From Escherichia coli (GTDB taxonomy: Bacteria; Pseudomonadota; Gammaproteobacteria; Enterobacterales; Enterobacteriaceae), in NCBI RefSeq assembly GCF_022846255.1, contig NZ_AP025682.1: a DNA stretch of 64,000 bases. One strand, written 5' to 3'. Positions 27,101 to 31,272 of this stretch are shown here, in pieces. A program made the position numbers. Each line of letters opens with the position of its first letter. The first letter of the stretch is position 1.

Positions 27101-30100
27101 GGGGCAACCTCTTCAGTCAGGTGTGCGATCTCCTGCACCGCATTCACATACGCCATTTCGCTGGCGATGAGTTCGTCCCATTGTTCTTCTGTCGCCAGGC
27201 GTAACATGAGCTGGCTTTTTTCGACGAGTTGTTGCCAGGCGAAATACAAATGCGGTGCATGGTTCATCAGACTGGGTCCTGAATCAAAGAAGGGGAGAGT
27301 AAAGACTCTTTCCAGGCATCGGCAATATTACGCATTAATGCTTCCACCTCTTCGACTGCGGAGACATCGTTGCGTAAATTGGCTTGCAGCAAACGCCTGA
27401 CCATATAGCTATAAAGAGCAATTAAGTTTTGGGTTAATTCGTCTTTGCTCTCTTCATCAAGACTCACCCGCAGTCCGTTCTCAATGATGTTGATCGCTTT
27501 TGACAAAGAGACACCTTTGCCTTGCTGATTGTTGTCCTGCATAAACAGGCGCGCTCTAACCAGTGCGCTCAGCACTCCATCAAATAGCATGGTGACCAAC
27601 TGCTGTTGGCTGGCGCTCATTACGGCGCTTTCGACGCCAATTTGTGCATAGGCCTGGGTGCCTTTTGCCGCGTACATGACCTGTCTCCCGATGAATATTG
27701 ATTACTTGGAATTACTGTTGTTTTCGAACTGCTGCGTTAAGTAGCTGCTGGTGCTGTTTAACGAGGTCATTAAAACGTCCAGTTGGGTAAATTGTTCTTT
27801 GTAGCGAGCGACCTGTGCATCAATGCGATCGCTGGCGGCGTTGTAGTCTTTAGTTAACTTATTCAGGGTCTTACTAACGCCATCGGTAGCGGCTTTAATA
27901 ATGCCTGTTGTCGAAAGCCAACTGGTCAGGTTGCTGCCGATGGTGGTCGTGATGCCGGTTTTTTTACCATCGCCAACAATCAATGCACCTACGCCGCTGG
28001 CATCTTTTTTCAGTGCAGCGGTGAGTTTGTCGGCATCCAGTTCCAGTTTGCCATCGCTGGGATCGGTCGTGATACCAATCTGCGCCAACGTTTTATAGTT
28101 GGAAGAACTAACGGTATTACTCAGCATCGATTTCAACTGCGTCTGAATCGTCCGCAACGTGGAGTCGCCGAGCAGTGCGCCATTGCTAGAACTCTGGCTA
28201 TCAGCCCCCGCATCTACGGCGGTGTATTTGGTCAGGCTGCTGAAGGTATCTATTAGCGAGTTATAGGCATTCACCCAGTCTTTAATCGCCGTTTGCGCTT
28301 TGGATGTGTCCTGAGTGATGGTTAGCGTCTGGTTGCCCGTGGTGACATCGTTCAGGTTCAGGGTGATGTTTTCCAGCGCGTCGCTGATGGTGTTGCTGCT
28401 GTTCTCAATGGCGACGTTATTGACCGTCAGCTGTGCATTCTGGGCGGCGACCGAGACCTCCATGCCGTTGCTGCTGGCACTGGCGTCATAGCCCATAAAA
28501 CTTTGTAGCGCATCATCACCGCTGACCGAGAGTGTCATCGCATTATCAAGGCCGGTGTCATTTGATGTGACTGACAGACGATATTCACCGTTACCCACGT
28601 TAATGATGCTTGCGCTTACGCCTGCTTTTGCGTTGTTGATGGCATCACGAATCCCGCTTAACGACGAGTTAGCCGCGCTGATATCAATGGCAATCGGATC
28701 TTTGTCGCCGCCTTGTTGAATGGTGAGTTTGCTGTCGCTGGTGGCGATCGCCGTTTTCGTATCGTCTCTGGTGGTGCGCGTTGTCAGGGTTTGCGCCTGC
28801 GCCAGATGGGTGACGCTGATGGTGTATTTCCCGGCGATGGCATTACCCGCGGTGGTGGCACTGAACGCGGTGGTGCTGCTGGTGGTGCTGGTAGCGGAAA
28901 AAAGATCGGCTTTAGACAATGCAGTATTGGCGGTCTGGAAAGTCGTCAGCGCGCTTTTCAGCGTACCGTAGGCGCTAAGTTTAGCGGTAAACGACGATTG
29001 CTGATTCGAAATAGGGGTTAGCGTCGCTTTTTGCGCGGCGGTGAGGCTATCAAGGATTGAACTTAAATCCAGACCTGACCCGACTCCCAGCGATGAAATA
29101 CTTGCCATGCGATTTCCTTTTATCTTTCGACACGTAAAACGAATACCGGGGTTATCGGCCTGAATTGCGCAAAGTTTACGTTTAATTGTTTTTTTTAATA
29201 GCGGGAATAAGGGGCAGAGAAAAGAGTATTTCGTCGACTAACAAAAAATGGCTGTTTGTGAAAAAAATTCTAAAGGTTGTTTTACGACAGACGATAACAG
29301 GGTTGACGGCGATTGAGCCGACGGGTGGAAACCCAAAACGTAATCAACGACTTGCAATATAGGATAACGAATCATGGCACAAGTCATTAATACCAACAGC
29401 CTCTCGCTGATCACTCAAAATAATATCAACAAGAACCAGTCTGCGCTGTCGAGTTCTATCGAGCGTCTGTCTTCTGGCTTGCGTATTAACAGCGCGAAGG
29501 ATGACGCCGCGGGTCAGGCGATTGCTAACCGTTTTACTTCTAACATTAAAGGCCTGACTCAGGCTGCACGTAACGCCAACGACGGTATTTCTGTTGCACA
29601 GACCACCGAAGGCGCGCTGTCCGAAATCAACAACAACTTACAGCGTATCCGTGAGCTGACGGTTCAGGCTTCTACCGGGACTAACTCTGATTCGGATCTG
29701 GACTCCATTCAGGACGAAATCAAATCCCGTCTCGACGAAATTGACCGCGTATCCGGTCAGACCCAGTTCAACGGCGTGAACGTACTGGCAAAAGACGGTT
29801 CGATGAAAATTCAGGTTGGTGCGAATGACGGCCAGACTATCACTATTGATCTGAAGAAAATTGACTCTGATACGCTGGGGCTGAATGGTTTTAACGTGAA
29901 TGGTTCCGGTACGATAGCCAATAAAGCGGCGACCATTAGCGACCTGACAGCAGCGAAAATGGATGCTGCAACTAATACTATAACTACAACAAATAATGCG
30001 CTGACTGCATCAAAGGCCCTTGATCAACTGAAAGATGGTGACACTGTTACTATCAAAGCAGATGCAGCTCAAACTGCCACGGTCTATACATACAATGCAT

Positions 30101-31272
30101 CTGCTGGTAACTTCTCATTCAGTAATGTATCGAATAATACTTCAGCAAAAGCAGGTGATGTAGCAGCTAGCCTTCTCCCGCCGGCTGGGCAAACTGCTAG
30201 TGGTGTTTACAAAGCAGCAAGCGGTGAAGTGAACTTTGATGTTGATGCGAATGGTAAAATTACAATCGGAGGACAGGAAGCCTATTTAACTAGTGATGGT
30301 AACTTAACTACAAACGATGCTGGTGGTGCGACTGCGGCTACGCTTGATGGTTTATTCAAGAAAGCTGGTGATGGTCAATCAATCGGGTTTAATAAGACTG
30401 CATCAGTCACGATGGGGGGAACAACTTATAACTTTAAAACGGGTGCTGATGCTGGTGCTGCAACTGCTAACGCAGGGGTATCGTTCACTGATACAGCTAG
30501 CAAAGAAACCGTTTTAAATAAAGTGGCTACAGCTAAACAAGGCACAGCAGTTGCAGCTAACGGTGATACATCCGCAACAATTACCTATAAATCTGGCGTT
30601 CAGACGTATCAGGCGGTATTTGCCGCAGGTGACGGTACTGCTAGCGCAAAATATGCCGATAATACTGACGTTTCTAATGCAACAGCAACATACACAGATG
30701 CTGATGGTGAAATGACTACAATTGGTTCATACACCACGAAGTATTCAATCGATGCTAACAACGGCAAGGTAACTGTTGATTCTGGAACTGGTACGGGTAA
30801 ATATGCGCCGAAAGTCGGGGCTGAAGTATATGTTAGTGCTAATGGTACTTTAACAACAGATGCAACTAGCGAAGGCACAGTAACAAAAGATCCACTGAAA
30901 GCTCTGGATGAAGCTATCAGCTCCATCGACAAATTCCGTTCATCCCTGGGGGCTATCCAAAACCGTTTGGATTCCGCCGTCACCAACCTGAACAACACCA
31001 CTACCAACCTGTCTGAAGCGCAGTCCCGTATTCAGGACGCCGACTATGCGACCGAAGTGTCCAACATGTCGAAAGCGCAGATTATCCAGCAGGCCGGTAA
31101 CTCCGTGCTGGCAAAAGCCAACCAGGTACCGCAGCAGGTTCTGTCTCTGCTGCAGGGTTAATCGCCGTAACCTGATTAACTGAGACTGACGGCAACGCCA
31201 AATTGCCTGATGCGCTGCGCTTATCAGGCCTACAAGGGGAATTGCAATTTATTGAATTTGCACATTTTTGTA

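What the first reader, a model, noticed from the sequence alone, without database searches (positions are those of the whole stretch)
29374..31161. Long (595 aa) flagellin with large central variable domain, H1/H12-like length
The conserved flagellin termini flank a T/A/G/N/D-rich variable region of roughly 320 residues (about 29900-30880), making this fliC about 100 codons longer than the K-12 H48 allele. The length matches what I recall for H1/H12 flagellins, as found in O6:H1-type extraintestinal strains. Together with the tap remnant it argues the window is not from a K-12-like background. The variable domain is the usual hotspot for horizontal exchange.
Basis: partly seen in the sequence, partly recalled or inferred. 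Interest (0 to 1): 0.35.

Follow-up and report, generated by a model that had tools for sequence, protein, structure and literature searches.

The report
H1 flagellin gene at recombination junction
This is an intact, ordinary E. coli flagellin gene of the well-known H1 antigen type (protein identical to that of strains CFT073 and Nissle 1917); the only unusual point is that it lies just inside a large stretch of B2-like DNA joined abruptly to an ST648-like chromosome whose sequenced relatives carry H6.

Summary
An intact 595-aa ORF lies at 29374..31161 (+), with Flagellin_N and Flagellin_C ends around a variable region of about 320 residues that is 60% T/A/G/N/D. It is 97 codons longer than K-12 fliC.

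In-silico H-typing gives H1, not H12. The protein is identical to CFT073 FliC (two synonymous nucleotide differences). It carries all six published H1-specific residues, whereas two H12-labelled strains differ at 7 residues. A sigma-28 promoter motif and an intrinsic terminator flank the gene. The gene itself is therefore already known.

The added result concerns its context. The window matches ST648 (phylogroup F, O1:H6) strain MS6198 with 2 SNPs up to position 27,033. It then switches ancestry inside fliT. It is about 1.7% from MS6198 and mostly B2-like to the window end, and for at least 7 kb beyond, including the B2-type tap deletion. Within that block, a 3-kb tract around fliC is 99.9% identical to B2 H1 strains, while its immediate flanks are about 1.3% diverged (P about 7e-14).

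This is H-antigen replacement by homologous recombination, a known process. Which lineage was the recipient, and where the block ends on the right, are unresolved.

The parts
29374..31161 (+). fliC CDS, 595 aa, H1 flagellin (stop codon 31159-31161)
   Evidence: ORF. Pfam Flagellin_N/FliC/Flagellin_C. 99.9% nt identity to CFT073, Nissle 1917, LF82 and O83:H1 NRG 857C. Protein identical to CFT073 WP_000079699.1.
29374..29901 (+). N-terminal conserved region (codons 1-176; filament core, D0/D1 by homology)
   Evidence: Flagellin_N hit at residues 5-140. 93-98% aa identity to H48, H6 and H5 alleles. Nearly identical to the solved 585-aa flagellin 7SN4 over this part. Contains the only two differences from CFT073, at 29607 and 29826, both synonymous.
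29902..30873 (+). Central variable, antigen-determining region (codons 177-500)
   Evidence: No nucleotide homology to H48, H6 or H5 alleles. 29-36% aa identity and dS 1.3-2.5 against them. Window 29900-30880 is 100% identical to H1 strains and 98.3% to H12-labelled strains. H1 residues E302, N340, G361, T391, N396 and N430.
30874..31158 (+). C-terminal conserved region (codons 501-595)
   Evidence: Flagellin_C hit at residues 508-593. 86-95% aa identity to other H types.
29271..29297 (+). Sigma-28 (FliA) class-3 promoter motif TAAAGGTT-N11-GACGATAA, 76 bp upstream of the ATG
   Evidence: Pattern search gives 2 matches in the 64 kb window and 0 in 100 shuffles. The other match, at 59731, is upstream of tar. 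Sequence read. Function is inferred from the consensus.
31336..31358 (+). Intrinsic terminator of fliC (7 G-C pairs, loop of 3, T-run)
   Evidence: Terminator scan; sequence.
31206..31305 (.). Two REP-like palindromes in the fliC 3' UTR / fliC-fliA spacer
   Evidence: Read directly; identified as REP from my own knowledge of the consensus. MS6198 lacks window 31167-31344. The short-read contig L017 breaks at 31229. K-12 annotates the sRNA FliX in the equivalent 3' UTR.
28692..31704 (.). Tract nearly identical to B2 H1 strains (5' part of fliD, the fliD-fliC spacer, all of fliC, the spacer, and the 5' part of fliA)
   Evidence: 3 mismatches in 3013 bp to CFT073 (29007, 29607, 29826), with a perfect run at 29827-31704. 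The adjoining 27034-28691 and 31705-34400 are 1.57% and 1.15% diverged. Binomial P = 6.6e-14.
26976..27034 (.). Ancestry crossover inside fliT (left edge of the foreign block)
   Evidence: Window versus MS6198: SNPs only at 16994 and 24101 up to 27033, then about 2% divergence from 27034. 26976 is the last site where the window equals MS6198 but differs from CFT073. Three-way sites: 126 versus 1 on the left, 141 versus 423 on the right.
27702..29108 (-). fliD (filament cap), divergently transcribed neighbour
   Evidence: ORF; annotation transfer from CFT073 and MS6198. Its exact protein occurs in 78 collection blocks, mostly beside 545- or 555-aa flagellins.
31481..32200 (+). fliA (sigma-28), downstream neighbour
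   Evidence: ORF; annotation transfer.
61496..61723 (+). tap remnant (about 1.36 kb internal deletion) between tar and cheR
   Evidence: Matches tap nt 1-134 and 1494-1602 of MS6198 tap, with a 15-nt overlap. The window is collinear with B2 strain IMT5155, which has an annotated truncated pseudogene at this position, while MS6198 has an intact tap.

Best explanation
The ORF is the fliC structural gene for the flagellar filament, allele H1. The conserved N- and C-terminal helices build the filament core and carry the export and polymerisation signals. The central region of about 320 residues forms the surface-exposed outer domains that define the H antigen. Transcription is from a FliA (sigma-28) class-3 promoter and ends at an intrinsic terminator. 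The allele is the ExPEC/AIEC variant of H1, with the same protein as CFT073 and Nissle 1917. It reached this chromosome by homologous recombination. The window changes ancestry inside fliT, from ST648-type DNA to a mosaic, mostly B2-type block of at least 37 kb in the window (at least 44 kb including the L021 extension). Within that block, a 3-kb tract around fliC shares much more recent ancestry with B2 H1 strains than its flanks do. Compared with ST648 relatives, the result is an H6-to-H1 antigen difference together with B2-type flhDC, mot and che genes and the tap deletion. Shown here: gene integrity, family, H type, SNP patterns and breakpoints. Inferred: expression, filament function, the direction of transfer, and the number of recombination events.
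For: Gene and family. Locus context fliT-fliS-fliD / fliC-fliA-fliZ. H1 typing: 99.9% to serotyped H1 strains; variable region 100% to H1 strains against 98.3% to O15:H12 and O128ac:H12; 0 aa differences from CFT073 and 7 aa differences from H12 strains; the six type-specific residues of PMC4753304 are all in the H1 state. Regulatory elements. Fold homology over the full length to solved flagellin 7SN4, E = 6e-192. Recombination: 2 SNPs in about 27 kb against MS6198, then about 1.7% divergence to 64,000; MS6198 is phylogroup F, ST648, O1:H6, with a 548-aa fliC that is 97.4% identical to an O99:H6 strain's; the right block is best matched by B2 strains at 99.3%; three-way sites flip from 126:1 to 141:423 while MS6198 stays 1.7-2.8% from B2 on both sides; the H1 tract has P = 6.6e-14. 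An independent short-read assembly, DRR322657, is 100% identical across the junction and fliC. GCA_005387665.1 and DRR322658 are 100% identical across the right block.
Against: No genome in the 5,426 complete E. coli set carries the junction, so the donor and recipient lineages are not directly observed. The right end of the foreign block was not found, and it is internally patchy: 42-44 kb, 46.8-50 kb and 56-62 kb are about 2% from every reference. A single clean import is therefore not demonstrated. Expression, motility and serological reactivity were not, and cannot be, tested here.
Confidence: 0.9

Rival explanations
1. The allele encodes H12, the serologically cross-reacting sister type of the same length, rather than H1.
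For: H1 and H12 are both 1788 nt / 595 aa and 97.5% identical (PMC4753304). At the two synonymous sites where the window differs from CFT073 (nt 234 and 453), it shares the state seen in H12-labelled strains.
Against: All six type-specific residues (302, 340, 361, 391, 396, 430) are in the H1 state. There are 42 nt and 7 aa differences from two H12-labelled strains, against 2 nt and 0 aa from CFT073. The variable region is 100% identical to labelled H1 strains.
Confidence: 0.01
2. Reverse polarity. The source is a rarely sampled B2-related lineage whose own chromosome provides the right-hand block, including H1 fliC. The left-hand stretch of at least 27 kb was recently imported from the common clone ST648.
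For: The B2-like block is at least 44 kb with no right end found, and it is internally mosaic in the way native chromosome is. It has no close match in any complete genome (best 99.3%). The left part is 100% identical to many ST648 genomes, as expected for a very recent import from a common clone.
Against: The same observations fit an ST648 recipient equally well. All ST648-like complete genomes listed share the MS6198-type sequence right of 27,034 (equal scores). ST648 is already known to include more than one H type: O1:H6 and O51:H4 (PMC8281228). A 64-kb window cannot decide.
Confidence: 0.4
3. The ancestry switch is an assembly chimera from a mixed ST648 plus B2 culture, not a real chromosome.
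For: The crossover lies in a conserved gene (fliT), where assemblers could join two strains. No complete genome shows the junction.
Against: An independently assembled short-read contig (Logan DRR322657, 41.9 kb) is 100% identical over 13.5 kb spanning the junction. Three further assemblies carry the right block at 100% identity. The right block is not identical to any known B2 strain, as a contaminating common strain would be.
Confidence: 0.03
4. The near-identity of fliC to B2 H1 strains reflects purifying selection or slow evolution of the allele, not a separate, more recent transfer of the 3-kb tract.
For: Flagellin ends are highly conserved at the protein level. Within the H1/H12 family the central domain has lower dS (0.03-0.04) than the ends (0.11-0.15).
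Against: The deficit is in synonymous and intergenic sites as well. There are 0 differences in 1,878 bp, including 320 bp of non-coding spacer and the start of fliA. The tract boundaries do not coincide with the gene boundaries.
Confidence: 0.07

Closest known systems
FliC H1 of ExPEC/AIEC strains (CFT073 O6:H1, Nissle 1917 O6:K5:H1, LF82 and NRG 857C O83:H1; RefSeq WP_000079699.1)
   Same: The 595-aa protein is identical and the nucleotide sequence is 1786/1788 identical. The flanking fliD and fliA arrangement and spacer lengths are the same.
   Different: Two synonymous sites differ (29607, 29826). fliS-fliD on one side and fliA-fliZ on the other are 1.2-1.6% diverged. DNA left of fliT is ST648-type, not B2, and lacks the emrE-ybcL-ybcM-porin island that CFT073 has between fliE and yedK.
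FliC H12 (for example O15:H12 2273-PO3 and O128ac:H12 AW1.7, WP_001723602.1)
   Same: Same length, same domain layout, 97.65% nt identity, serologically cross-reactive family.
   Different: Seven residues differ: E302K, N340K, G361D, T391K, N396D, N430K, T431A. Six of these are the published type-specific positions.
Porcine O139:H1-type fliC-H1 variant (P15-25; also strain 2021CK-01784)
   Same: H1 type, 595 aa, H1 state at the six diagnostic residues.
   Different: 32-33 nt and 3-4 aa differences (A258T, V393A, T431A, plus or minus V481I). The window belongs to the other, ExPEC/AIEC cluster described in PMC4753304.
Solved flagellar filament flagellins 7SN4 (585 aa), 7SQJ (548 aa) and 8CXM (498 aa). 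From memory these are EHEC H7, EPEC H6 and K-12 filaments; the lengths agree with that.
   Same: Full-length alignment to 7SN4 (1-595 to 1-585, E = 6e-192), with near-identical core helices and a clearly homologous outer-domain region.
   Different: The outer-domain region is diverged, with several indels. H6 and K-12 align only through the ends and part of the centre. No H1 structure appears in the list.
ST648 O1:H6 chromosome (MS6198, CP015834)
   Same: Window 1-27,033 is identical apart from 2 SNPs. Gene order is the same through the flagellar region.
   Different: MS6198 has a 548-aa H6-type fliC, an intact tap, a type I restriction-modification island next to leuZ and a dgt-containing insert between cheZ and flhB. 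It lacks about 178 bp of the fliC-fliA spacer. It is about 1.7% diverged right of 27,034.

Membership tests
Bacterial flagellin (FliC/FljB family) | N-terminal flagellin helical domain | tested here: met
   PF00669, residues 5-140, 158.3 bits against a cut-off of 26.6.
Bacterial flagellin (FliC/FljB family) | C-terminal flagellin helical domain | tested here: met
   PF00700, residues 508-593, 109.6 bits against a cut-off of 23.
Bacterial flagellin (FliC/FljB family) | Located at the fliC locus (divergent from fliDST, upstream of fliAZ) with a sigma-28 class-3 promoter | tested here: met
   Neighbouring ORFs. Annotation transfer from CFT073, K-12 and MS6198. TAAAGGTT-N11-GACGATAA at 29271-29297, 0 expected by chance.
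Bacterial flagellin (FliC/FljB family) | Exported and polymerised into a motile filament | not testable with these tools
   Needs a motility assay or electron microscopy. The ORF is intact and identical to the protein of motile reference strains.
E. coli H1 flagellar antigen (fliC-H1) | 1788-nt / 595-aa coding sequence | tested here: met
   PMC4753304 states that all H1 and H12 genes have this length.
E. coli H1 flagellar antigen (fliC-H1) | Type-specific residues Glu302, Asn340, Gly361, Thr391, Asn396, Asn430 | tested here: met
   Window residues are E, N, G, T, N, N. The criterion comes from PMC4753304.
E. coli H1 flagellar antigen (fliC-H1) | Near-identity to fliC of serotyped H1 strains | tested here: met
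   99.9% over the full length to O83:H1, O18:H1, O2:H1, O25:H1 and CFT073. The variable region is 100% identical.
E. coli H1 flagellar antigen (fliC-H1) | Agglutination with H1 antiserum | not testable with these tools
   Serology is required.
E. coli H12 flagellar antigen (fliC-H12) | Type-specific residues Lys302, Lys340, Asp361, Lys391, Asp396, Lys430 | tested here: not met
   None of the six is in the H12 state. There are 7 aa differences from two H12-labelled strains.
H-antigen replacement by homologous recombination | Abrupt change of SNP density or ancestry relative to the closest relatives, with a different fliC allele in those relatives | tested here: met
   2 SNPs up to 27,033, then about 1.7-2% divergence. 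MS6198 carries an H6-type fliC of 548 aa.
H-antigen replacement by homologous recombination | Both boundaries of the imported segment, and identity of donor and recipient | tested here: inconclusive
   The left crossover is bracketed to 26976-27034. The right boundary was not reached at 64,000 or 7.4 kb beyond. The best donor-like genomes are B2 at 99.3%. Polarity is undecidable from 64 kb.

The most novel reading that the evidence does not exclude
The source is an undescribed hybrid derivative of the globally disseminated ST648 clone. In one or a few large recombination events it replaced at least 44 kb of its flagellar and chemotaxis region with B2-type DNA. That changed its H antigen (H6 to H1), its chemoreceptor set (tap lost) and its flhDC, mot and che alleles together, and it has been sampled several times (DRR322657, DRR322658, GCA_005387665.1).
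Probability: 0.45. Interest if true: 0.35.

Novelty: already known. Interest (0 to 1): 0.2.

Why it matters
The gene is a textbook H1 flagellin, and its typing simply adds 'H1' to the description of the source strain. The context is of modest epidemiological interest. It shows a sharply bounded ancestry switch that separates this lineage from sequenced ST648 O1:H6 relatives. That illustrates how a high-risk clone, or a lineage that borrowed from it, can change its H antigen and chemotaxis gene set in a single large homologous exchange. This matters for serotype-based tracking and for any flagellin-directed vaccine or diagnostic. It does not open a new biological question.

Tried and rejected
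1. Finding the source genome or the junction in 5,426 complete E. coli genomes: none carries it. The best hit is 98.3% over 24 kb and 99.5% over the 4.7-kb junction tract.

2. Using the exact FliD protein as a lineage marker. It is widespread (78 blocks), mostly beside 545- or 555-aa flagellins, and those loci are 1-2% different at DNA level. Only L017 was the same lineage.

3. Using FliT as a 'hybrid protein' marker of the crossover. The exact sequence is common (376 blocks) and also sits beside 560-aa flagellins, so it is not informative.

4. Chaining to the right with ArgS to reach the right boundary. The protein is ubiquitous (61,283 blocks) and only unrelated genomes were returned.

5. 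An apparent 76-bp indel between the window and draft L021 upstream of flhD is just a run of 61 Ns in the draft.

6. Rfam gathering search: nothing in or next to fliC, only DsrA, C0465 and three tRNAs elsewhere.

7. Sigma-70 promoter scan: nothing relevant upstream of fliC, consistent with sigma-28 dependence.

8. Considered and rejected: H12 (diagnostic residues), a second or non-fliC flagellin locus (the gene is at the canonical position), a pseudogene (the ORF is intact and identical to a reference protein).

9. Structure prediction was not run, because a full-length solved homologue exists and the protein is already known.
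Full report
**Observation.**
- Pfam places Flagellin_N at residues 5-140, the FliC middle-domain family at 333-499 and Flagellin_C at 508-593, all far above their curated cut-offs.
- Its neighbours are fliT, fliS and fliD on the opposite strand upstream, and fliA, fliZ, tcyJ and dcyD downstream. This is the canonical fliC locus, in reverse orientation relative to the K-12 map.
- Nucleotide homology to heterologous alleles (K-12 H48, MS6198 H6, IMT5155 H5) ends at 29891-29904 and resumes at 30842-30934.
- Residues 177-500 are 60% T/A/G/N/D, against 38-43% in the conserved ends.
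- K-12 fliC is 498 aa, so this allele is 97 codons longer.

**H typing.** Against 5,426 complete E. coli genomes, the full gene is 99.9% identical to fliC of CFT073, Nissle 1917, ATCC 25922, LF82, O83:H1 NRG 857C, and O18:H1, O2:H1 and O25:H1 strains.
- The variable region alone (29900-30880) matches only 202 genomes. It is 100% identical to those H1 strains, 98.8-98.9% to porcine O139:H1-type alleles and 98.3% to O15:H12 and O128ac:H12.
- A base-by-base comparison with CFT073 shows two differences, both synonymous (29607 and 29826, codons 78 and 151), so the protein is identical.
- Two H12-labelled strains differ by 42 nt and 7 aa: E302K, N340K, G361D, T391K, N396D, N430K and T431A.
- Beutin et al. 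2016 (PMC4753304) report that H1 and H12 genes are both 1788 nt / 595 aa and 97.5% identical. [quoted passage not shown] They also report that ExPEC O2/O6/O25:H1 and AIEC O83:H1 strains share one identical fliC.
- The window carries the H1 state at all six positions, and A258/T431/V481 as in the ExPEC/AIEC cluster. The type is therefore H1, ExPEC/AIEC variant. H12 is excluded.

**How the gene works.** This part is inferred from the family, with local support.
- A sigma-28 type motif, TAAAGGTT-N11-GACGATAA, lies at 29271-29297, 76 bp upstream of the ATG. The pattern occurs only twice in the window, with none expected by chance. The other copy precedes tar.
- A strong intrinsic terminator lies at 31336-31358. 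It is preceded by two REP-like palindromes in the 3' UTR (REP identification from my own knowledge).
- The protein aligns end to end with the solved 585-aa flagellin of entry 7SN4 (E = 6e-192). The core helices are almost identical, and the outer-domain region is homologous but diverged. It aligns in part with 7SQJ (548 aa) and 8CXM (498 aa). From memory these are the EHEC H7, EPEC H6 and K-12 filaments.
- The conserved ends thus form the filament core, and the central region forms the exposed outer domains that constitute the H antigen.

- Between H types, the central domain is saturated: dS 1.3-2.5, dN 0.67-0.80, 29-36% aa identity and many gaps. The conserved ends have dS 0.24-0.63. The flanking genes fliT, fliS, fliD, fliA, fliZ and tcyJ have dS about 0.04-0.10. 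The exception is the H5 strain IMT5155, whose fliD is also saturated (dS 2.16).
- Against CFT073 the pattern is the reverse. fliC has dS 0 in the centre and C-end and two synonymous changes in the N-end, while fliD, fliA and fliZ have dS 0.04-0.05.
- Within the H1/H12 family, the centre (dS 0.03-0.04) is less diverged than the ends (0.11-0.15).
- All three patterns are what allele exchange at this locus predicts, so the refutation condition is not met.

**Genomic context: the unexpected part.** The 24 kb around fliC has no match better than 98.3% in any complete genome, although fliC itself is 99.9% identical to B2 strains.
- Window 1-7000 is 100% identical to a group of strains including MS6198, Ecol_881 and FDAARGOS_497. 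The same group, plus ECONIH1 and MS 69-1, gives the best match (99.4%) to 22500-28690. MS6198 is phylogroup F, ST648, O1:H6 according to PMC8281228.
- Against MS6198, the window has only two SNPs (16994, 24101) up to 27,033. It then diverges abruptly, at about 1.7% overall, to the window end.
- The crossover is bracketed between 26,976 and 27,034, inside fliT.
- MS6198 carries a 548-aa flagellin at this locus. It is 97.4% identical to that of an O99:H6 strain.
- The right-hand part (31.2-56 kb) is best matched by B2 strains at 99.2-99.3%: APEC IMT5155, BEN2908, an O2:K1:H5 strain and an O99:H6 strain.
- Three-way site patterns flip. To the left of the breakpoint, 126 sites have window = MS6198 but not IMT5155, against 1 site for the opposite pattern. 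To the right of fliC the counts are 141 against 423.
- MS6198 remains 1.7-2.8% from B2 on both sides. It is therefore the window's lineage that changes ancestry.
- The block is patchy. It is 0.1-0.4% from B2 references at 33-41.5 kb, 44.3-46.8 kb and 49-56 kb, but about 2% from all references at 42-44 kb, 46.8-49 kb and 56-62 kb.
This is collinear with the truncated pseudogene annotated in B2 strain IMT5155, whereas MS6198 has an intact tap.

**The H1 tract within the block.** From 28,692 to 31,704 there are 3 mismatches to CFT073 in 3,013 bp, with a perfect 1,878-bp run at 29,827-31,704. The adjacent 27,034-28,691 and 31,705-34,400 are 1.57% and 1.15% diverged (binomial P = 6.6e-14).
- The tract begins inside fliD and ends inside fliA, and it includes non-coding spacers. 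Selection on the protein therefore cannot explain it. It indicates more recent shared ancestry of this fliC-centred tract with B2 H1 strains.
- The two synonymous differences in the 5' conserved end are states also present in K-12 and H12 alleles. That suggests a mosaic 5' end rather than new mutations. 29007 is private to the window.

**Is the junction real?**
- A Logan short-read contig from run DRR322657 (41.9 kb) is 100% identical to window 17,702-31,229, across the crossover and the whole of fliC.
- The window's exact Tar protein is rare, found on only 5 contigs. Contigs from GCA_005387665.1 and DRR322658 are 100% identical to window 49,713-64,000 and 56,507-64,000, apart from an N-gap in the draft.
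- The GCA_005387665.1 contig extends 7.4 kb beyond the window (flhB to cutC). It is still only 97.2% identical to MS6198, so the foreign block is at least 44 kb and its right end was not reached.

**What remains open.** The window cannot show whether an ST648 chromosome received B2-type DNA, or a rarely sampled B2-related lineage received ST648 DNA. The data are symmetrical on this point. ST648 is known to include more than one H type, O1:H6 and O51:H4, so fliC replacement in that clone has precedent. Attempts to walk further using FliT and ArgS as markers failed, because those exact proteins are widespread.

**Verdict.** Its interpretation is supported and sharpened from 'H1/H12-like' to H1, ExPEC/AIEC variant. 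The added value is that fliC sits at the edge of a sharply bounded ancestry switch, which documents H-antigen replacement by homologous recombination in this lineage. That is a well-known process in E. coli, so novelty is low and interest modest.

Noticed in passing
window 26976-27034 (inside fliT) and everything to the right, to 64000: There is a sharp ancestry switch. The window has 2 SNPs against ST648 strain MS6198 up to 27,033. It is then about 1.7% diverged and mostly B2-like for at least 37 kb in the window (at least 44 kb with L021). No complete E. coli genome carries this junction.
   Followed up: yes
window 61496-61723: The tap chemoreceptor gene is reduced to a 228-nt remnant (nt 1-134 fused to nt 1494-1602 across a 15-nt overlap). 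The window is collinear here with B2 strain IMT5155, which has a truncated pseudogene annotated at this position. ST648 strain MS6198 has an intact tap.
   Followed up: partly
window 31167-31344 (fliC 3' UTR / fliC-fliA spacer): Two REP-like palindromes lie here. MS6198 lacks this stretch of about 178 bp entirely, and a short-read contig breaks at 31229. K-12 annotates the sRNA FliX in the equivalent 3' UTR, so strains may differ in whether they have this sRNA region.
   Followed up: partly
window 59731-59757 (+) and 59664-59741 (-): The second sigma-28 consensus match (TAAAGTTT-N11-GCCGATAA) lies just upstream of tar. The Rfam sRNA family C0465 matches the opposite strand, overlapping it.
   Followed up: no
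L008 (APEC IMT5155) 5289-6704, compared with window 27702-29108: The fliD of this H5 strain is extremely diverged from the window's fliD (dS 2.16, dN 0.15), while fliS and fliT next to it are normal (dS about 0.05). The filament cap gene thus co-varies with some fliC alleles.
   Followed up: no
L005 38900-46191, L006 13267-21001 and L023 19913-22142 (MS6198): MS6198 has an island next to the leuZ tRNA (type I restriction-modification genes, DUF262, an M48 peptidase, a cold-shock-domain protein) and a dgt plus hypothetical-gene insert between cheZ and flhB. Both are absent from the window and from L021.
   Followed up: no
window 20438-22477: The intG remnant / yedN (DUF5503) pseudogene / yedL segment is present, as in K-12 and ST648. 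CFT073 has an emrE-ybcL-ybcM-porin island at this position instead. Window 21001-22000 is 100% identical to strain 2021CK-01784.
   Followed up: no
window 42100-44250 and 46760-50435: These sub-blocks (around yecA-tyrP and around ftnB-araF) are about 2% from every reference compared (B2, F, A and the best overall hit). Their source lineage is unidentified.
   Followed up: no
window 7688-7774 and 41153-41451: DsrA sRNA and three tRNA genes, at the position where related genomes annotate tRNA-Gly, tRNA-Cys and tRNA-Leu (glyW, cysT, leuZ in K-12), were found by Rfam. These are ordinary features.
   Followed up: no
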